Positions 144 through 29,405 of a stretch of 30,437 bases of DNA are shown here, piece after piece. The stretch's first letter is position 1, and the number at the start of each line of letters is the position of its first letter. The stretch is from a virus. Taxonomy: Duplodnaviria > Caudoviricetes. The position numbers were made by a program, and so were the translations under genes. The stretch covers positions 1 through 30,437 of the IMG/VR virus record IMGVR_UViG_3300030372_004564; one strand, written 5' to 3'. Below the pieces are notes generated by a model. It had not been told where the DNA came from. It saw only the letters and a list, made by a program, of their open reading frames with translations, and made no database searches.

Positions 144-284
144 GCGCCACTCGATCACAGTCGATCGATCGCCCTCTATTCGACGCGCTGCGCTGGATAG
201 GGGGTGTTTATGTTTGCTTATCATGTGCACAGCTAATAGAATCGAAGATGTCAGCAGGGGCATCCACCCCGAAGGAGCGACACC
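144..284 (+). promoter_or_regulatory. Promoter cassette P1 (sigma70-type promoter, operator, leader hairpin, GGAGCGAC RBS)
   Basis: GCGCCACTCGATCAC at 144; TTGCTT (214-219)-N17-TAGAAT (237-242); palindrome TATCATGTGCACAGCTAA at 219-236; GGGG-CATCCA-CCCC hairpin; GGAGCGAC at 274-281. Confidence 0.8.
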
Positions 285-640: not shown

Positions 641-672
641 CACAGCCCCCGAAAGGGGGCAAGGAGCGACAC
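641..672 (+). repeat. Hairpin-RBS repeat copy 1
   Basis: CACA-GCCCCC-GAAA-GGGGGC-AAGGAGCGACAC; 31/32 identical to 903-934. Confidence 0.95.
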
Positions 673-902: not shown

Positions 903-934
903 CACAGCCCCCGAAAGGGGGCGAGGAGCGACAC
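903..934 (+). repeat. Hairpin-RBS repeat copy 2
   Basis: CACA-GCCCCC-GAAA-GGGGGC-GAGGAGCGACAC. Confidence 0.95.
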
Positions 935-935
935 C

Positions 936-1286
936 ATGAAGCATGATTACAGATTCAAGATAGTCGATGAAGCGAAATTTGAGTGGCGCGACTACACGAC
1001 TGACTGGAACGATCACGAGACCGTTAAAGCAGCAGAGGCTCGCATGCTTTATTGCGACGTCTTCGATGATGTTGCTCTGATGGTGCAGCTACAGTCGGGC
1101 GGCGCGTGGTCTGTGGTGACTGCGGGATCTGACCGGTCTGGGTACCCGTTGACCGTTCACAGAAGCGGCCTGAGCCGAGAGCGTGCCGAGGCATACTGCG
1201 TCGAGATTCTACATGAGGACCTAAACGAATATGTCTTTTACTATTTCCATCCAGATTGTGCGAGAAAGGGAGCGAATGATCCATGA
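936..1286 (+). CDS. Hypothetical accessory protein (116 aa)
   Basis: Start moved from 861 to ATG 936, which follows GGAGCGACACC. Confidence 0.85.
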   Translation: MKHDYRFKIVDEAKFEWRDYTTDWNDHETVKAAEARMLYCDVFDDVALMVQLQSGGAWSVVTAGSDRSGYPLTVHRSGLSRERAEAYCVEILHEDLNEYVFYYFHPDCARKGANDP

Positions 1287-1837
1287 GTGACACACGAGTA
1301 GGAAGGCCGAAACTCTCAATCGTTCCGTGCACTAGAGAGCAGGCTAAGAATTTCGTGAGGTTGAACCACAGACATCACAACCCATCAGTGATAGGTATAT
1401 TTTGCGTGGCATGCGTTGACGAGTCTGGACTCGTTAGGGGCGTTGCCATGGTCGGCAGGCCGGTTGCGAGGCTGTCTTGCGATGGTCGAACGGTCGAGGT
1501 CAACCGAGTAGCGACCGATGGCTGTCCTAACGCTTGCAGCTTCCTTCTCGGCGCGTGCAGGAGGATAGCCTTTGAGCTGGGCTATACGAAGATCCTGACC
1601 TATACGCTGCCCGCTGAGGGGGGGGCGAGCTTGCGAGGTGCCGGATGGAGCTGCGCTGGCGAGGCGGGCGGGGGTAGCTGGAAGAATCACCCACGCCCAG
1701 GTAGAGACAATCACCCCACATCAGTAAAAGTAAAGTGGGTGTCAATGAGCAGAAATCGAAGCGTTGAAGAAATCGTGTGGCCCGACATCAAAGAACAGAC
1801 AGATCAAATTCATCTCTTCGCGGGAGCGACATCATGA
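1283..1837 (+). CDS. XF1762-family / Mom-like GNAT-fold protein, possible DNA modification enzyme
   Basis: Motifs AKNFVRLNHRHH, GVAMVGRPVAR, EVNRVATDG.PNACSFL.GA, LGY.KILTYTL..EGGASLRGAGW match my recollection of this family. Confidence 0.75.
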   Translation: MSDTRVGRPKLSIVPCTREQAKNFVRLNHRHHNPSVIGIFCVACVDESGLVRGVAMVGRPVARLSCDGRTVEVNRVATDGCPNACSFLLGACRRIAFELGYTKILTYTLPAEGGASLRGAGWSCAGEAGGGSWKNHPRPGRDNHPTSVKVKWVSMSRNRSVEEIVWPDIKEQTDQIHLFAGATS

Positions 1838-2142: not shown

Positions 2143-3180
2143 ATGGACTTCCACAAGGGACGCGCGACTGACGCCGTCCTTGAATCAAGCCTGCCGAGCA
2201 TGCAGCGGCTGCTATTGATCGTCTACATCAAGCACGCGAACTCTGACGGCATAGCGTGGCCTGGAGGCGATCGGCTTGCGAAGCTCTGCGGCTCCTCGCT
2301 GAAGTCCGTGAAGCGTCACAGGTCGGCGCTCATTGCCTGCGGAGTGCTGGACCTTGTAGAGGGCGGAGCCGGCAAGGTCTACCGCATCAGGATCAATCTC
2401 GAAGCTCTGCCAACTGGGGACACAGAGTCACCGGGGTCAGATTGTCACCGGGGTCAGAATGTCCCCAGTGGTGGGGTCAAATTGTCCCCGGTACTGGGGT
2501 CAGATTGTCCCCCTAATATACACAGTGAAGATCACACAGATGAAGATCACACAAACCCCCATAAGTCCCCCACGGGGGACGAGCCTATAGACGAGCCAGA
2601 AGAGCCCTCAGAGCCAGAGCCAGAGAAGGACGAAGAAGAGAAGATCGACAAGGTCGCTATCTGCTTCGAGAAGCTCTGCGAGATGCGCAGCAGATACGGA
2701 GGCTCAAGAGCGCGAGCCCTGAAACTCACAGCGAACAGGCGGAGGCAGCTCGGCTCGCGGCTGAAGGAATACTCAGAGGAGGAGATCCTCCATGCGTGGA
2801 AGTGGTGGCACACCTCACCGTCTGAGATGGCGATCACGCTCCGTCAAGGCTACGACCTCGACACCTTCATCCGACCGTCACGGCATGACAACTACCAGAC
2901 CCACGCCCAGAACGAGGCTGAGGCGCTCCAGGATGCCCCAGAGAGCACGAGGAGCGAGCCGCTGAGCCCAGAGGACCAAGAGCGCATTAGAATCGCCTGG
3001 GAGGCCGCACAGGCTGAGAAGGAGCGCAAGCTATGGGAGGACAAGGAGAGAGCTGAAGCAGAAATACGACGCATGACAAGCGAGCCACCACGGCCAGTCC
3101 TCAAGGTCGTAGAAGACGAGGAGCGCGCATACTGCTCGTGGAATGAGTACCAGAGATCTATCAAAGGAGCGACATCATGA
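2143..3180 (+). CDS. Phage replication initiator (N-terminal winged HTH, lambda O/DnaD-like organisation)
   Basis: LLLIVYIKHANSDGIAWPGGDRLAKLCGSSLKSVKR HTH pattern, internal iterons, and a C-terminal LTANRRRQLGSRLKEYS...YDLDTFIRP replisome-organiser-like segment. Confidence 0.85.
   Translation: MDFHKGRATDAVLESSLPSMQRLLLIVYIKHANSDGIAWPGGDRLAKLCGSSLKSVKRHRSALIACGVLDLVEGGAGKVYRIRINLEALPTGDTESPGSDCHRGQNVPSGGVKLSPVLGSDCPPNIHSEDHTDEDHTNPHKSPTGDEPIDEPEEPSEPEPEKDEEEKIDKVAICFEKLCEMRSRYGGSRARALKLTANRRRQLGSRLKEYSEEEILHAWKWWHTSPSEMAITLRQGYDLDTFIRPSRHDNYQTHAQNEAEALQDAPESTRSEPLSPEDQERIRIAWEAAQAEKERKLWEDKERAEAEIRRMTSEPPRPVLKVVEDEERAYCSWNEYQRSIKGATS
2416..2512. repeat. Five 17-bp iterons, probable replication origin
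   Basis: GGGGTCAGATTGTCMCC-like units at 2416, 2433, 2450, 2473 and 2496, followed by TGAAGATCACACA x2 (2526, 2541). Confidence 0.85.
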
Positions 3181-4023: not shown

Positions 4024-4183
4024 CAAGCCTGCAGCCCCAAAACCGTTCATCGTCGCGACCTGTCAGGCTTGCGGCATGCAGTGGAAGCACTACGGGAAGA
4101 AGAAGCCGGACGCGATATGTGCCGGCTGTATCCAGAAGCAAGGAGCGACAACCAATGAGCCAGAGCCAGCCGCAGAAGAGTGA
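3998..4183 (+). CDS. Small Zn-ribbon protein (61 aa)
   Basis: CQAC...CAGC; GGAG upstream. Confidence 0.6.
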   Translation: MPSKKKTDNKPAAPKPFIVATCQACGMQWKHYGKKKPDAICAGCIQKQGATTNEPEPAAEE

Positions 4184-5711
4184 GGCCGCCGCCGTCTACG
4201 TAGACCCGTCGACGCTGACTCCGTGGAATCAGAACCCCCGGAATAATGAAGCGGCGATTGACGAGGTCGCGAAGTCCATCCAGAGATTCGGCTTCGCGTC
4301 GCCTATCGTCGCGAGGACTGCTGACGGTAGAGTCATAGCAGGGCATACGAGGCTCGCAGCGGCGCTCAGGCTGGGCTTGGAGGACGTGCCAGTGCGATTC
4401 CTCGACATAGACGAGCAACTGGCCTCAGCGCTCGCCCTGGCGGATAACAAGATCGGCGAGATTGCAACATGGGACGACGAGACCTTGGGGCAAGTCCTCG
4501 CAGAGCTTGAGCAGGATGGGATGGACCTCGGCGGGCTCGGCTGGGATGAGGACGAGCTTGATCGAATCCTCGAAGCCGCGAACCCTCCGCAGCCTGAGCC
4601 CATGACAGAGGATGAGGTCGACTGGGACTCGATGCCCGAAGACGTGCCAGCCATCACGCAAGCCGGAGACGTGATCGAGCTTGGCCGGCATGTCTTGCAC
4701 TGTGGCGACTGCATTGAGACTATGCGAGGCATGCCAGAGAACAGCATTGACGCCATCGTCACCGACCCGCCCTATGGTATCGGCTTCATGTCTAAGAATT
4801 GGGATGTGGCCGTGCCGGGTGAGGACTGGGCGCGGGAGTGTCTTCGAGTCCTGAAGCCTGGAGGGCATCTGATAGCCTTTGCAGCTACCCGGACAGTGCA
4901 CCGGCTCACCGTTGCAGTAGAGGATGCAGGCTTCGAGATACGAGACCAAATTGCCCACATCCAATATCAAGGATTTCCGAAGAGCCTGTCGGTACCAGCG
5001 CAGCTCGAAGGCTCTGACGCTCAGCGCTTCGAGGGCTACGGTACAGCGCTGAAGCCTGCATTTGAGCCCGCAGTTTTGGCACGGAAGCCGCTATCCGGCA
5101 CAGTCGCGGCTAACTGTCTGGAATGGGGAACGGGCGGGTTGAACATTGACGGGTGCCGGTATGCGTATGGGGATCCGGCATGGCCGGGGCCGGGGGATAG
5201 GCCTCCAGCGGTCCCGCAGCGGGATAACTTGAGATATTCAATGGGAGACGGGGCGGGCAGGAATGGGGAGCGGCTCGACGTTCCAGAGCTGGGCAGATGG
5301 CCCGCGAATATCTACGCTTGCCCGAAGCCCAGCCGGTCAGAGCGGGAGCAGGGATGCGAAGAGCTACCCGGCAGGACTGGAGCGGAAGCGGTAGAGCGCA
5401 AGGAGGGCACGGCAGGGCTTGACAATCCGAGAGCGGGAGCCGGTCGCACTGCGTCAGAGGTGAAAAACTATCACCCGACAGTCAAGCCGATTCGGCTCAT
5501 GCGCTGGCTCGTGCGGCTCGTGAGTCCTCCCGCGCTCGATGGCGTGCCGCCTGTAGTCCTTGAGACCTTCGGGGGGAGTGGTACGACGATAGTGGCTGCA
5601 GAGCTTGAGGGGGTGCGGTGTATCGGAATCGAGATGGAGCCGAGTTACTGCGATATCATCAGGGCAAGGCTCACCGATGCGATAGGGGGAGAAGATGGGA
5701 CGACCGACTAA
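4155..5711 (+). CDS. ParB/Srx N-terminal domain fused to N6/N4 amino-DNA methyltransferase (beta class)
   Basis: NPRNN...SIQRFGF..PIV...IAGHTRL...LADNK (ParB-N); TDPPY catalytic motif before HPTVKP and FGGSGT SAM-binding motif. Start at ATG 4155 after AAGGAGCGAC. Confidence 0.92.
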   Translation: MSQSQPQKSEAAAVYVDPSTLTPWNQNPRNNEAAIDEVAKSIQRFGFASPIVARTADGRVIAGHTRLAAALRLGLEDVPVRFLDIDEQLASALALADNKIGEIATWDDETLGQVLAELEQDGMDLGGLGWDEDELDRILEAANPPQPEPMTEDEVDWDSMPEDVPAITQAGDVIELGRHVLHCGDCIETMRGMPENSIDAIVTDPPYGIGFMSKNWDVAVPGEDWARECLRVLKPGGHLIAFAATRTVHRLTVAVEDAGFEIRDQIAHIQYQGFPKSLSVPAQLEGSDAQRFEGYGTALKPAFEPAVLARKPLSGTVAANCLEWGTGGLNIDGCRYAYGDPAWPGPGDRPPAVPQRDNLRYSMGDGAGRNGERLDVPELGRWPANIYACPKPSRSEREQGCEELPGRTGAEAVERKEGTAGLDNPRAGAGRTASEVKNYHPTVKPIRLMRWLVRLVSPPALDGVPPVVLETFGGSGTTIVAAELEGVRCIGIEMEPSYCDIIRARLTDAIGGEDGTTD

Positions 5712-7486: not shown

Positions 7487-7659
7487 ACGCGCGCGCCGCG
7501 AATAAATGCCGATCGATCAGACACGATCAAAATAATATTAGAGCGCAGTGGTGCGATCAGCTCTCTCTGCCCTATATATTTCTTAGCTATAAGTTGTGCA
7601 CAGGTTACAGTGTATCCATGATGCGGGACACAAACCAGCCCCCTCCAAGGAGCGACACC
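7487..7659 (+). promoter_or_regulatory. Promoter cassette P2
   Basis: GATC x4; ATTAGAGCGCAGTGGTGCG (7537-55); operator TAAGTTGTGCACAGGTTA (7590-7607); -10 TACAGT (7606-11); GGG-ACACAAACCAG-CCC leader; GGAGCGAC (7649-56). Confidence 0.8.
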
Positions 7660-8031
7660 ATGAGCAAGGTCTACAGAGCACAAAACGGCTGCATTCTTCG
7701 AGTGAGCGCAGATGGCGAGAGCTACATCTTCTCCGGTGGCCGGACCGGTCAGTACAGCCTCAGCGTAGAGCACACCGATGAGGCGCGGCTCAATGCTCAC
7801 TGGGAGGGCTACCTCGCCGTCAACGAGCCCATCAAGTACCGGGTGAGCTACATCCGAGAGAACTGCTACCGAGAGTGGAACGCGAAAGGCGAGAAGGTCG
7901 CCAAGCGGCGCAGAGCCTCCAAGACGGTGATCGCAGCTAACGAGATCGACGCCGCAAACAAGGCGAGAGACTATTGCAGCAAGTTCTACCCACAGACTCA
8001 CTTTAGCCTTGTGTCTGTAGAGTCCGCCTAA
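7660..8031 (+). CDS. Hypothetical moron protein (123 aa)
   Basis: Start moved to ATG 7660 after AAGGAGCGACACC. Confidence 0.85.
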   Translation: MSKVYRAQNGCILRVSADGESYIFSGGRTGQYSLSVEHTDEARLNAHWEGYLAVNEPIKYRVSYIRENCYREWNAKGEKVAKRRRASKTVIAANEIDAANKARDYCSKFYPQTHFSLVSVESA

Positions 8032-8033
8032 CC

Positions 8034-8068
8034 ACCACCAGCCCCCGCAAGGGGGCAAGGAGCGACAC
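8034..8068 (+). repeat. Hairpin-RBS repeat copy 3
   Basis: ACCACCA-GCCCCC-GCAA-GGGGGC-AAGGAGCGACAC; 8039-8068 is identical to 27360-27389. Confidence 0.95.
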
Positions 8069-8069
8069 C

Positions 8070-8411
8070 ATGAATGCGTTGAATATCAATCGATGGACCC
8101 AAACCCTAATTTGTGGAGCCGTCTGGATTCGCATCTTTAGCGATGGCGAGGACATGGAGCCCAACCGCTGGAGCGTTACGATTAGGCAGAGAATTCCTGG
8201 GAGCCGTAATGCGATGGTCAGTGGTGTGGAAATCTGGGACGGCGAGCTGATGCTCTCTGGGCAAGAGGACGCATCAGTCCTTCGGTCGCTCTCCGAGCTT
8301 GAGCGGGTGCTCTCCGAAATGGTCATTCCGTACTGCGACGCGCCGGACATGACGACAGGACGCCCGCTGCGCTCAGAGGTGTTCGTCAGGTCCTGGCATG
8401 AGCCAGAATAA
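8070..8411 (+). CDS. Hypothetical moron protein (113 aa)
   Basis: GGAGCGAC RBS; flanked by a perfect 23-bp direct repeat. Confidence 0.8.
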   Translation: MNALNINRWTQTLICGAVWIRIFSDGEDMEPNRWSVTIRQRIPGSRNAMVSGVEIWDGELMLSGQEDASVLRSLSELERVLSEMVIPYCDAPDMTTGRPLRSEVFVRSWHEPE

Positions 8412-8420
8412 CAACTATCG

Positions 8421-8443
8421 ACCACCAGCCCCCGCAAGGGGGC
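8421..8443 (+). repeat. Hairpin repeat copy 4 (no RBS, ends the moron)
   Basis: ACCACCAGCCCCCGCAAGGGGGC, identical to 8034-8056. Confidence 0.95.
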
Positions 8444-16868: not shown

Positions 16869-16890
16869 TCACACACAAGGAGCGACAATC

Positions 16891-25751: not shown

Positions 25752-25814
25752 CCAAGGTGCTCATCCAGAATTGATGAGCTTCTTGAGCTTCTTAAGCTTC
25801 TTGAGCACCTTTGG
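25752..25814. repeat. Inverted repeat enclosing 9-bp tandem repeats
   Basis: AAGGTGCTCA (25754-63) / TGAGCACCTT (25802-11); TGAGCTTCT-like units x4 at 25775-25810. Confidence 0.8.
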
Positions 25815-25833
25815 TCGTATGTCGTAACGACGC
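25809..25833 (+). repeat. 25-bp direct repeat, left copy
   Basis: CTTTGGTCGTATGTCGTAACGACGC, identical to 26254-26278. Confidence 0.97.
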
Positions 25834-25835
25834 CC

Positions 25836-26003
25836 GCGCCACTCGATCAGAGCCGATCGATCACCATTAGGATCACTTCCGATTAGAGCGCAGTAGTGCG
25901 TTTATGGATATTATTGGATGATCTTCTTGACGTAGTAAGGTGTGCACGTGTTATAGTTATTTCACCGAGGGGGACACAAACCCACCCCCCGAAAGGAGCG
26001 GCT
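25836..26003 (+). promoter_or_regulatory. Promoter cassette P3
   Basis: GCGCCACTCGATCA; GATC x4; ATTAGAGCGCAGTAGTGCG; TTGACG (25927); operator TAAGGTGTGCACGTGTTA (25936-53); TG-T-TATAGT; GGGGG-ACACAAACCCA-CCCCC; GGAGCGGC. Confidence 0.85.
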
Positions 26004-26253: not shown

Positions 26254-26278
26254 CTTTGGTCGTATGTCGTAACGACGC
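26254..26278 (+). repeat. 25-bp direct repeat, right copy
   Basis: Identical to 25809-25833. Confidence 0.97.
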
Positions 26279-26323
26279 GCGCTGAGTGTGGCGGTGTGGC
26301 GGATGTGGCGGCAAATACAGGTA

Positions 26324-26400
26324 GCCCCCGAACACCCCCGGAGCGACTCAGGGGCGAACGGAGGCAGCCCTGAAGGGCAGGGCGCCTATCCTTGACGCCC
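26324..26400 (-). ncRNA. Predicted small RNA antisense to the GGAGCGAC start motif
   Basis: Three consecutive hairpins. The last has 15 bp, a 2x2 U/U internal loop and terminal loop AGUCGCUC. Four G-U pairs form only on the minus strand. -10-like TAGACT at 26412-26407. Confidence 0.65.
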
Positions 26401-26409
26401 CGCGCAAGT

Positions 26410-26919
26410 CTACCCCACGGGACCCACGTGAGCCAGCCCGAACAGGGCAAGGCAGCCCGCGTCCGACAGCCCGTCGTGGGGCTTGCGGCGTCTACCCCAT
26501 GTAAGGCTAAGCTCCGGCAGCCGAGCGCCCACGAGGGCGACAGAGCGCGCCTTGCCTTCTCCCTGGATGCCTGCGTATACGCTCCGCGTCCATCGAGCCG
26601 AGGAGACCTCCAGCAGCGGCAGGCGGAGCGCGTGAACGATGCCGCTCCAGAGTCCCCAGCCGAATCCCGTAGTGAGGCAGCTCGACCTACCCTCGATAGG
26701 GCGAGCCTGCTGACGCTCAAGGACCACGAGGGCGACCTCTCCGCGCTCTGCTATCTCTTCGAGCACTTGGACCATTCTGCGGACGTTGTAGGCCTTGCCG
26801 GCTACGTAGCCCTCCTCTGGATGGTCGGCGGCTGTCCACTCTGTAGCTGTGGGCCTGCCTGTGATGTCGAGGGCTACGACGCCCCCCTTCTTGCCTGGGT
26901 CGATGCCTATGATCTGCAT
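26410..26919 (-). CDS. RuvC-like Holliday junction resolvase
   Basis: IIGIDPGKKGG, VVLERQ, GFGWG.W, W.R.V, HDGLSDA.CLA.FG; AAGGAGCGACA-ATG RBS on the minus strand. Confidence 0.9.
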   Translation of the reverse strand: MQIIGIDPGKKGGVVALDITGRPTATEWTAADHPEEGYVAGKAYNVRRMVQVLEEIAERGEVALVVLERQQARPIEGRSSCLTTGFGWGLWSGIVHALRLPLLEVSSARWTRSVYAGIQGEGKARSVALVGARLPELSLTWGRRRKPHDGLSDAGCLALFGLAHVGPVG

Positions 26920-26951
26920 TGTCGCTCCTTGATTAGATGTGCCCGCGTAGC

Positions 26952-27015: not shown

Positions 27016-27181
27016 GCGCCACTCGATCACGGCGATCGGATCAAATGTGATCACTTTCTATTCGATGCACTGCGCTGTAATGTCGATATAAATGGTGCAA
27101 AAGTGGCGCACGTTAGCTGTGCACGGATTAAGCTATGGTCATGAGGCGGGGAGATAAACCAACCCCACCAAAGGAGCGGCT
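27016..27181 (+). promoter_or_regulatory. Promoter cassette P4
   Basis: GCGCCACTCGATCAC; GATC x4; TCTATTCGATGCACTGCGCTG; operator TTAGCTGTGCACGGATTA (27113-30); -10 TAAGCT; GGGG-AGATAAACCAA-CCCC; GGAGCGGC. Confidence 0.8.
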
Positions 27182-27352
27182 ATGACTAAGACCCAGACAC
27201 TCTCGAACGGAACTGCAATCACCTTCACTATCGTCAAGTGCTTTCCCGTCGATGGTAACCGCGTGAGTCACGACTACCGGGTCAAGGTCTCTCGTCCAGA
27301 CGGTGGCAGCTACACGGTCAACATGGCGCAGTCCGCCTGGAACCGCATTTGA
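27182..27352 (+). CDS. Hypothetical protein (56 aa, not in the ORF track)
   Basis: MTKTQTLSNGTAITFTIVKCFPVDGNRVSHDYRVKVSRPDGGSYTVNMAQSAWNRI after AAGGAGCGGCT; ends just before a hairpin repeat. Confidence 0.8.
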   Translation: MTKTQTLSNGTAITFTIVKCFPVDGNRVSHDYRVKVSRPDGGSYTVNMAQSAWNRI

Positions 27353-27359
27353 GCAATTA

Positions 27360-27389
27360 CAGCCCCCGCAAGGGGGCAAGGAGCGACAC
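27360..27389 (+). repeat. Hairpin-RBS repeat copy 5
   Basis: CAGCCCCCGCAAGGGGGCAAGGAGCGACAC. Confidence 0.95.
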
Positions 27390-27863: not shown

Positions 27864-27991
27864 TGCGGACGAATCCTGACCTCATCCGCGAGGCTATCGC
27901 CTGTAGCATTTTCACGGCCGGAATCCTTGCGGCCATCATCGCAGCCCCGCGAATAGCGTACTGGCTGCACATCAACGGGGCGACACCATGA
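27863..27991 (+). CDS. Small membrane peptide (42 aa, not in the ORF track)
   Basis: MRTNPDLIREAIACSIFTAGILAAIIAAPRIAYWLHINGATP; coupled at both ends (TAATG, ATGA); GGAG RBS. Confidence 0.7.
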   Translation: MRTNPDLIREAIACSIFTAGILAAIIAAPRIAYWLHINGATP

Positions 27992-28865: not shown

Positions 28866-29053
28866 GGACGCACAAGGCATCGACTACCCTGAGCGATACG
28901 GAGGCTTACCGCCTCGACGGGATGTGCCGAAAGCTCGGCGTCACCCGGTCAGAATTCATCCGTCAGCTCGTGCTCATCGCCATAGGGGCGCCAGAGCTTC
29001 GAGCGACAATCAAGGAGGCCATGAAGGCCCATCTAAGGAGCGACACACCATGA
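28862..29053 (+). CDS. Ribbon-helix-helix (CopG-like) DNA-binding protein
   Basis: KASTTLSD.E..RLD.MC.KLGVTRSEFIRQLV. Confidence 0.8.
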   Translation: MRTHKASTTLSDTEAYRLDGMCRKLGVTRSEFIRQLVLIAIGAPELRATIKEAMKAHLRSDTP

Positions 29054-29394: not shown

Positions 29395-29405
29395 GGAGCG
29401 ACACC

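What the first reader, a model, noticed from the sequence alone, without database searches (positions are those of the whole stretch)
26324..26412. Candidate small RNA whose loop is complementary to the start motif of at least 16 phage genes
Seen: read on the minus strand from ~26400 (6 nt after a TAGACT -10-like box), the intergenic DNA folds into three adjacent hairpins: GGGCGUC-AAGGAUA-GGCGCCC, GCCC-UUCA-GGGC, and GCCUCCG-UU-CGCCCCUG-[AGUCGCUC]-CGGGGGUG-UU-CGGGGGC. Four stem pairs are G-U, so the fold works on the minus strand only. The loop plus the next base reads GUCGCUCC, the exact reverse complement of GGAGCGAC. This is the only copy of that 8-mer I spotted away from a start codon. The motif variants GGAGCGGC (25995, 27173) and GGGGCGAC (27977) are A-to-G changes opposite the two U's, which G-U wobble tolerates. 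The 3' arm could extend pairing: GGGGGUG matches CACCCC(C) in the P1/P3 leaders, and UUCGGGGGCU matches AGCCCCCGAA of the hairpin repeats at 644 and 906. Known analogues: P1/P7 C4 and P4 CI antisense RNAs, which pair with short targets at a few sites. Inference: one trans-acting RNA controls translation of a genome-wide regulon by RBS pairing, for example an early-to-late switch or RNA-based immunity.
Basis: partly seen in the sequence, partly recalled or inferred. Interest (0 to 1): 0.92.

Follow-up and report, generated by a model that had tools for sequence, protein, structure and literature searches.

The report
Phage RNA loop mirroring start tags
An uncultured phage puts one private 8-base tag in the ribosome-binding site of 16 genes and keeps its exact mirror image in the loop of its strongest predicted RNA hairpin; related phages keep matching tag-and-loop pairs of different sequence, so the RNA likely turns down translation of this gene set together, though no transcript has been seen.

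Summary
Confirmed. The window is a near-complete tailed-phage genome. GGAGCGAC occurs 14 times: 13 just before an ATG, one as the antisense loop of the genome's most stable local hairpin (rank 1 of 3118). The hairpin is on the minus strand, just 3' of the ruvC-like gene. With three A-to-G variants the tag marks 16 genes, nearly all non-structural. Two diverged relatives keep the loop behind ruvC in unrelated stems. More distant phages carry three other tags (GAGGCAACC, AAGGACCA, GGAGACA), each with its own complementary loop; one class has compensatory stem changes and a promoter-like site. Best reading (0.6): a trans-acting antisense RNA that blocks the ribosome site of a tagged gene set. Transcript, direction of effect and timing are untested. 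The TAGACT box overlaps the ruvC stop; 3'-arm extension is unsupported. The tag resembles the unexplained start-associated sequences (SAS) of Cluster K mycobacteriophages. Adephagia's single reversed SAS is also a hairpin loop, where late transcription is reported to start, but the fetched parts of TM4, Pixie and AnnaSerena show no such loop. My paper searches found no report of such an RNA; this scan noted the same anatomy before on other phages.

The parts
26324..26365 (-). Main hairpin (15 bp with a 2x2 internal loop, 3 G-U pairs) presenting the anti-tag loop
   Evidence: (rank 1 of 3118 local hairpins)
26340..26347 (-). Anti-tag GUCGCUCC (7 nt in the loop plus the closing C)
   Evidence: kept in L001, L002, L089, L304
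26380..26400 (-). 5' hairpin 1; a hairpin of changed sequence sits at the same place in L089, none in L304
26367..26378 (-). Small hairpin 2; not seen in L089 or L304, probably dispensable
26407..26412 (-). TAGACT: ruvC stop codon and possible -10 box; the -35 is weak here
26410..26919 (-). RuvC-like (MOC1-type) Holliday junction resolvase gene, 169 aa, directly upstream of the RNA
   Evidence: phrog_1770 E 3.6e-14; MOC1 structures E 2.6e-12
26921..26928 (-). Tag GGAGCGAC of ruvC itself (possible cis target, 574 nt from the loop)
274..281 (+). Tag before ORF 285 (unknown; first gene after a promoter-like site)
663..670 (+). Tag before ORF 674 (unknown)
925..932 (+). Tag before ORF 936 (unknown)
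1823..1830 (+). Tag before ribbon-helix-helix gene 1834
3166..3173 (+). Tag before ORF 3177 (follows the replication initiator)
4142..4149 (+). Tag before ParB-methyltransferase gene 4155
7649..7656 (+). Tag before ORF 7660 (small cassette between terminase and portal, with its own promoter-like site)
8059..8066 (+). Tag before ORF 8070 (same cassette)
16879..16886 (+). Tag before ORF 16891 (probable tail assembly chaperone, by position); the only tagged gene of the structural/lysis block
25995..26002 (+). Variant tag GGAGCGGC before ORF 26004
27173..27180 (+). Variant tag GGAGCGGC before ORF 27182
27380..27387 (+). Tag before ORF 27391
27977..27984 (+). Variant tag GGGGCGAC before ERF recombinase gene 27988
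29037..29044 (+). Tag before SSB-like gene 29050
29395..29402 (+). Tag before ORF 29406 (weak HTH_17 match)

Best explanation
The hairpin behind the ruvC stop is likely the working part of a stable phage RNA whose open loop would pair in trans with the GGAGCGAC tag in the ribosome-binding sites of 16 mostly non-structural phage genes and so probably blocks their translation together. Shown: tag, loop, fold, strand, and co-variation of tag and loop in relatives. Inferred: the transcript (the ruvC 3' UTR, or a short RNA from the TAGACT box), the pairing, and repression, inferred because the duplex covers the GAG of the Shine-Dalgarno core plus the spacer. Most likely the RNA builds up with delay and damps early/middle gene translation; a role in a carrier or immune state is the alternative timing.
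For: Tag enrichment: 14 copies against 2.2 expected, 13 at ATGs. The tag is on 14 of 21 non-structural plus-strand genes but 1 of 24 structural/lysis genes. The lone non-start copy is the loop of the most stable of 3118 local hairpins; 0.04% of 7-mers are displayed as well. Opening the loop costs 0.5 kcal/mol; 15 of 16 tagged start regions give -7.6 to -10.4 kcal/mol, against a mean of -4.1 for 25 untagged ones (circular as to sequence, informative as to accessibility). L089 (77% RuvC identity) and L304 (74%) keep GUCGCUCC in unrelated 15-18 bp stems with G-U pairs on the ruvC strand; chance is about 0.003-0.004 each. Three other tag/loop classes occur in more distant phages, with a near-diagonal count matrix. 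Class B has an invariant loop, 5 of 8 pairs changed on both sides with 0 of 500 shuffles as high, and promoter-like and terminator-like flanks. No ORF across the loop is conserved. In Adephagia the reversed SAS is a hairpin loop between genes 92 and 93, where late transcription is reported to start.
Against: No transcript or effect has been observed. The pairing is only 7-8 bp. The automatic loop test was significant in just 7 of 66 RuvC loci (three near-copies; L020 rejected on inspection; L314 not inspected). It missed L304, and class B/C loci scored only p 0.07-0.17 each or were missed. Classes were assigned after looking at the data. L021 has the class C loop but 0 class C tags, and L098 has 2 class C tags against 1 class B tag. 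Unassigned loci gave up to 7 hits to a loose class A pattern with no loop sought. The window's promoter lacks a good -35. SAS-bearing TM4, Pixie (right halves) and AnnaSerena (50 of 56.7 kb) show no clear anti-tag loop, and SirPhilip and Keshu keep the Adephagia scaffold with an unrelated loop.
Confidence: 0.6

Rival explanations
1. Cis autoregulation only: the ruvC 3' UTR loop folds back onto ruvC's own tagged ribosome site, and the other tags have another purpose or were spread by leader duplication.
For: ruvC carries the tag in the window, L001, L002 and L304; in L304 the loop matches 12 nt of the ruvC leader.
Against: Class C ruvC leaders lack the tag. In 7 class B loci the RNA lies 2.5-3 kb from ruvC on the other strand with its own promoter-like site. 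It does not explain 15 other tagged genes.
Confidence: 0.1
2. The tag is a site for a phage or host protein (a RegA/RegB-like repressor or nuclease, or an activator; names recalled), and the extra copy is a decoy read on the plus strand or a DNA site.
For: Tags on single-stranded leaders suit an RNA-binding protein; Pope et al. left RNA or protein open for SAS. Class C hairpins show no strand preference by energy.
Against: G-U pairs and energies favour the antisense strand in the window, L089 and L304 (-34.0/-22.7, -28.4/-23.0, -36.6/-26.5). Promoter-like sites point along the antisense strand in 12 of 12 class B/C loci.
Confidence: 0.1
3. The RNA pairs with the tags but activates or stabilises the messages, or triggers termination as recalled for P4 CI RNA, instead of blocking ribosomes.
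For: Four tagged leaders follow a GC hairpin resembling a terminator, and tags often sit near probable transcript 5' ends.
Against: The duplex covers the Shine-Dalgarno core and spacer, which should hinder 30S loading. No structure that hides the ribosome site and is opened by the RNA was found.
Confidence: 0.1
4. The hairpin is just the ruvC terminator or a decayed gene leader, and the loop match is a relic.
For: It sits at the end of a convergent gene, and its plus strand shares AGCCCCCGAA and the tag with real leaders.
Against: There is no U-run after the stem and the terminator scan did not list it. The 8-mer survives total stem turnover, never has an ATG behind it, and switches with the tag in other clades.
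Confidence: 0.1

Closest known systems
Start-associated sequences (SAS/ESAS) of Cluster K mycobacteriophages and Cluster EF Microbacterium phages (PMC3203893, PMC7302621, PMC11373665, PMC12699233; passages read)
   Same: A private, asymmetric tag containing the Shine-Dalgarno core plus extra conserved bases, a few nt before ATG, on 10-19 mostly non-structural genes. Four K1 phages have one copy not tied to a gene start. Function was still called unknown in 2024-2025.
   Different: Different sequence (8 nt vs 13 nt) and unrelated phage. The passages read name no complementary RNA; here a partner loop is identified and co-varies with the tag.
c4 antisense RNA of phages P1/P7 (PMC12197685, PMC8198154; passages read) and P4 CI RNA (recalled)
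   Same: Phage RNA that pairs through loop sequences with short sites near a ribosome-binding site and blocks expression.
   Different: c4 acts on the icd/ant message of its own operon. This RNA has one loop and about 16 dispersed targets, has no Rfam match, and no antirepressor operon was found.
Multi-target bacterial trans-encoded sRNAs with anti-Shine-Dalgarno loops, and 3' UTR-derived sRNAs (general knowledge, recalled; CisR seen as a search listing)
   Same: Short seed in an unpaired region pairing with many ribosome-binding sites; possible origin from a 3' UTR.
   Different: The targets are the phage's own genes and carry an identical lineage-specific tag that changes together with the loop.

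Membership tests
c4 / P4 CI immunity RNAs | Match to an Rfam model (C4 or any other) | tested here: not met
   only a chance mir-929 hit elsewhere (E 0.17); no such hit in 8 related loci
c4 / P4 CI immunity RNAs | Lies in an operon with its targets icd/ant (antirepressor) | tested here: not met
   Neighbours are ruvC and small unknown ORFs; no antirepressor, CI-type repressor or integrase among 47 ORFs scanned
c4 / P4 CI immunity RNAs | tRNA-like fold matured by RNase P (recalled) | tested here: inconclusive
   Predicted fold is three adjacent hairpins; ARAGORN finds nothing; processing cannot be tested
c4 / P4 CI immunity RNAs | Loop sequence complementary to a site at the target ribosome-binding site | tested here: met
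SAS-type start tags | Asymmetric repeat with SD core plus extra conserved bases, a few nt before ATG, ten or more copies | tested here: met
   13 exact and 3 variant copies, 1-5 nt before ATG
SAS-type start tags | Confined mainly to non-structural genes | tested here: met
   14 of 21 vs 1 of 24
SAS-type start tags | Cluster K consensus sequence and 17-bp ESAS inverted repeats | tested here: not met
   The tag is GGAGCGAC; upstream promoter-like sites share a GTGCAC core instead
Trans-encoded base-pairing sRNA | Discrete transcript that changes target expression by pairing | not testable with these tools
   No RNA holder was listed; needs experiment
RNA-guided RuvC nucleases (TnpB/IscB-like) | Large RuvC protein with RNA-binding lobes, always linked to its RNA | tested here: not met
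   169-aa stand-alone MOC1-like resolvase; RNA uncoupled from ruvC in 7 class B loci and L141

The most novel reading that the evidence does not exclude
Tag and loop form an interchangeable RNA address code used across unrelated phages. One small RNA shuts off a whole tagged regulon at the early-to-late switch, or defines superinfection-immunity groups without a protein repressor, and the same mechanism explains the Cluster K SAS, with the hairpin at the start of Adephagia's late transcript as the switch.
Probability: 0.35. Interest if true: 0.92.

Novelty: new variant of a known kind. Interest (0 to 1): 0.8.

Why it matters
It would be a phage regulon controlled by one short RNA seed instead of a protein, with specificity re-coded by paired changes in loop and tag. 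It gives a concrete, testable partner for start-associated sequences, unexplained since 2011, and points to a cultured phage (Adephagia on M. smegmatis) where the idea can be tested directly. It would also offer a compact way to co-regulate many genes.

Tried and rejected
Rfam: no match in the window or 8 related loci. Sequencing runs: no RNA holder listed, so nothing could be laid; this is not evidence either way. Conserved ORF across the loop: none. RuvC as an RNA-guided nuclease: rejected. Host 16S variant as the source of the tag: unlikely, because the tag differs among related phages; the host was not identified (searches gave only distant RuvC hits). 3'-arm extension: never chosen with accessibility costs; in cofolding it appeared for 6 of 11 tagged leaders at -4.7 to -11.6 kcal/mol, overlapping an untagged control at -7.2. 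L020/L014/L019 hairpin with a GGACAGAUG-complementary loop: dropped, because the hairpin's own antisense was counted as a leader. The scan for the full start tag (120 loci, about half the collection) gave mostly single hits in unrelated phages. Lysis-gene relatives L388-L395 have neither ruvC, tag nor loop in the fetched 10 kb flanks. One paper search was uninformative. The careful RuvC tree did not finish; only the quick tree was read.

Full report
Setting. The window is a 30.4-kb virus record, 97% complete, with a 98-nt terminal repeat. It encodes terminase, portal, capsid, tail, lysis, replication-initiator, ERF, SSB-like and Gp157 proteins; no integrase, CI-type repressor or antirepressor was found among 47 ORFs scanned. 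Gene starts are my picks from the ORF list, not a gene caller's. The only minus-strand gene I could recognise is a 169-aa RuvC-like resolvase at 26919-26410, related to plant MOC1 structures. The host is unknown.

Observation. The minus strand of 26400-26320 folds as described (z -4.38, 0 of 200 shuffles as good; plus strand z -1.27). GGAGCGAC occurs 14 times (shuffle mean 2.18, maximum 6). Thirteen copies lie 1-5 nt before an ATG, one of them before ruvC, and only 26340 does not. With GGAGCGGC (25995, 27173) and GGGGCGAC (27977), 16 genes are tagged: 14 of 21 non-structural plus-strand genes, 1 of 24 structural/lysis genes, and ruvC. Two hits of the looser pattern there, 22797 and 29888, were set aside as not matching the 8-mer. 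The hairpin ranks first of 3118 local hairpins on both strands, and 0.04% of the genome's 7-mers sit in so stable a loop. It starts 10 nt behind the ruvC stop, whose TAG is the first half of the proposed -10 box.

Close relatives (class A). L001 and L002 (97-98% RuvC identity) keep the main hairpin with one U-G/C-G exchange, even though L002 diverges right after it. L089 (77%) and L304/L305 (74%) have hairpins of unrelated sequence behind the ruvC stop, with 15 and 18 enclosing pairs and 2-3 G-U pairs on the ruvC strand. They still display GUCGCUCC, extended to GUCGCUCCUGG and GGUCGCUCCUUC, which match their own leaders. The chance of the 8-mer within 130 nt is about 0.004 and 0.003. No reading frame over the loop is shared.

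Co-variation. Among 66 de-duplicated loci with at least 37% RuvC identity I assigned 18 to four classes by inspection; 48 stayed unassigned, many being fragments. Class B (9 loci): tag GAGGCAACC, loop GGUUGCCUC. Class C (3): tag AAGGACCA, loop UUGGUC(C). Class D (L141): tag GGAGACA, loop GUGUCUCC, rank 2 of 833 hairpins. Counts of each tag before ATGs are near-diagonal: own tag 2-20 in A (loose pattern), 1-8 in B, 4, 4 and 0 in C, 3 in D; foreign tags 0-1, except 2 in L098. In eight class B RNAs the loop is invariant while 5 of 8 stem pairs change on both sides (0 of 500 shuffles; slid controls lower; the structure was derived from this alignment). A model built on them recovered three further copies, L097, L101 and L107, all close to training rows. 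All 12 B/C loci have a TTGACA-like hexamer, 16-17 nt, and a TANNNT box just before the hairpin, and class B has a GC-rich terminator-like stem after it. Seven class B RNAs lie 2.5-3 kb from ruvC on the other strand, so the link to ruvC is not obligatory. Against: the blind per-locus test passed in only 7 of 66 loci, missed L304, and gave p 0.07-0.17 or no hit for B/C loci. L021 has a loop without exact tags in the fetched DNA. L034 and L137 had 7 and 4 hits to the loose class A pattern that I did not follow up. The quick RuvC tree groups class A (support 99) and intermingles B and C.

Pairing. Opening GUCGCUC costs 0.5 kcal/mol. Net energies are -7.6 to -10.4 for 15 of 16 tagged start regions (-3.1 for 26004), against a mean of -4.1 for 25 untagged ones. 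This is circular in sequence but shows both partners are predicted accessible. The 3'-arm extension was never chosen there, appeared in cofolding for 6 of 11 tagged leaders with energies overlapping a control, and is not kept in L089 or L304.

Transcript. The window's TAGACT equals the -10 box of four class B loci, and L089 has TAGGAT at the same spacing, but the -35 matches 2-3 of 6, the scan found no promoter, and L304 and L141 have no box. Own promoter and ruvC 3' UTR are both open. No RNA run was listed.

Mechanism. The best reading is trans-acting translational repression of a tagged gene set (0.6). The duplex covers GAG of the Shine-Dalgarno core and the spacer, so occlusion is the expected result (established behaviour of base-pairing sRNAs; inferred here). 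Timing is inference: resolvase expression and the non-structural nature of the targets suggest a delayed shut-down of early/middle translation, while host-type promoters in classes B/C would also fit a carrier or immune state. Rivals are cis-only autoregulation, a protein-binding tag with a decoy, a non-repressive outcome of pairing, and terminator or relic (0.1 each).

Known systems. The tag behaves like the SAS of Cluster K mycobacteriophages. Pope et al. (PMC3203893, passages) describe a 13-bp repeat 3-7 bp before ATG, leave open an RNA or protein partner, and note one reversed copy in four K1 phages. SAS are still unexplained in PMC11373665 and PMC12699233 (passages), and a similar tag occurs in Cluster EF (PMC7302621, passages); PMC4351075 (passages) was not informative. 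I found that Adephagia's reversed copy is the 10-nt loop of a 20-pair hairpin between genes 92 and 93, the interval where late transcription is said to begin (figure not seen). The region matches 135 records. Of 8 divergent ones fetched, 4 keep the loop with changed stems, 2 have a near match with one base missing, and 2 have an unrelated loop. TM4 and Pixie (right halves) and AnnaSerena (50 of 56.7 kb) show no clear equivalent. This extension is a lead, not a result. The RNA works like c4 of P1/P7 (PMC12197685, PMC8198154, passages) but fails membership (no Rfam match, no ant operon, one loop, many targets). P4 CI features are recalled. Searches that found no paper on a phage RNA complementary to a shared start tag; the library lacks most subscription journals.

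Earlier scan notes. No note exists for this genome or look-alike DNA, but word searches returned 16 notes on other genomes with the same or related anatomy. They are unchecked and are not counted as evidence; my comparison with SAS preceded them.

Verdict. The feature is real, conserved and co-varying. The mechanism is well motivated but untested. It is a new variant of antisense translational control; interest 0.8.

Noticed in passing
L372:30661-30713 (Adephagia record about 58660-58712): The single reversed SAS is the loop of a 20-pair hairpin between genes 92 and 93; the scaffold recurs in K1, K3 and K6-type phages with a variable loop.
   Followed up: partly
L374:30800-30850 and L378:18760-18826: A second strong hairpin in Pixie and Ekdilam, matched in 15 mycobacteriophage records; its minus-strand loop in Pixie has a 7-nt complement to SAS.
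   Followed up: partly
window 215-245, 7590-7654, 25936-26000, 27105-27185: Four promoter-like sites share a GTGCAC core in the spacer, and three share a leader ending in the tag; possible operator for one of the two ribbon-helix-helix proteins.
   Followed up: no
window 144-173, 25836-25865, about 27018-27045: Repeated imperfect palindrome (GCGCCACTCGATCA...GATCG) upstream of promoter regions; a similar site occurs in L089.
   Followed up: no
window 25809-25837 and 26254-26282: 29-nt direct repeat flanking the small ORF 26004 unit, which is replaced in L002 and absent in L304: a probable exchangeable cassette.
   Followed up: no
window 643-660, 905-922, 8039-8056, 8426-8443, 27360-27377: GC hairpin with a GNRA loop directly before four tags; the same layout with different sequence occurs in L141.
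   Followed up: partly
window 7590-8440: Two small tagged genes with their own promoter-like site inserted between terminase and portal.
   Followed up: no
window 2413-2515: Short direct and inverted repeats inside the replication initiator gene, a likely origin with iterons.
   Followed up: no
L188:5000-5035 and L216:10260-10310: Unrelated phages where the anti-tag lies within about 20 nt of a tagged start, i.e. a cis-sequestering arrangement.
   Followed up: partly
L012, L014, L017, L019, L094, L095 just after the ruvC stop: tRNA-like sequence abutting the ruvC stop; L014, L019 and L020 also share a long conserved hairpin elsewhere.
   Followed up: no
window 1283-1837 and 4155-5711: Mom-like DNA modification gene and a ParB-methyltransferase fusion.
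   Followed up: no
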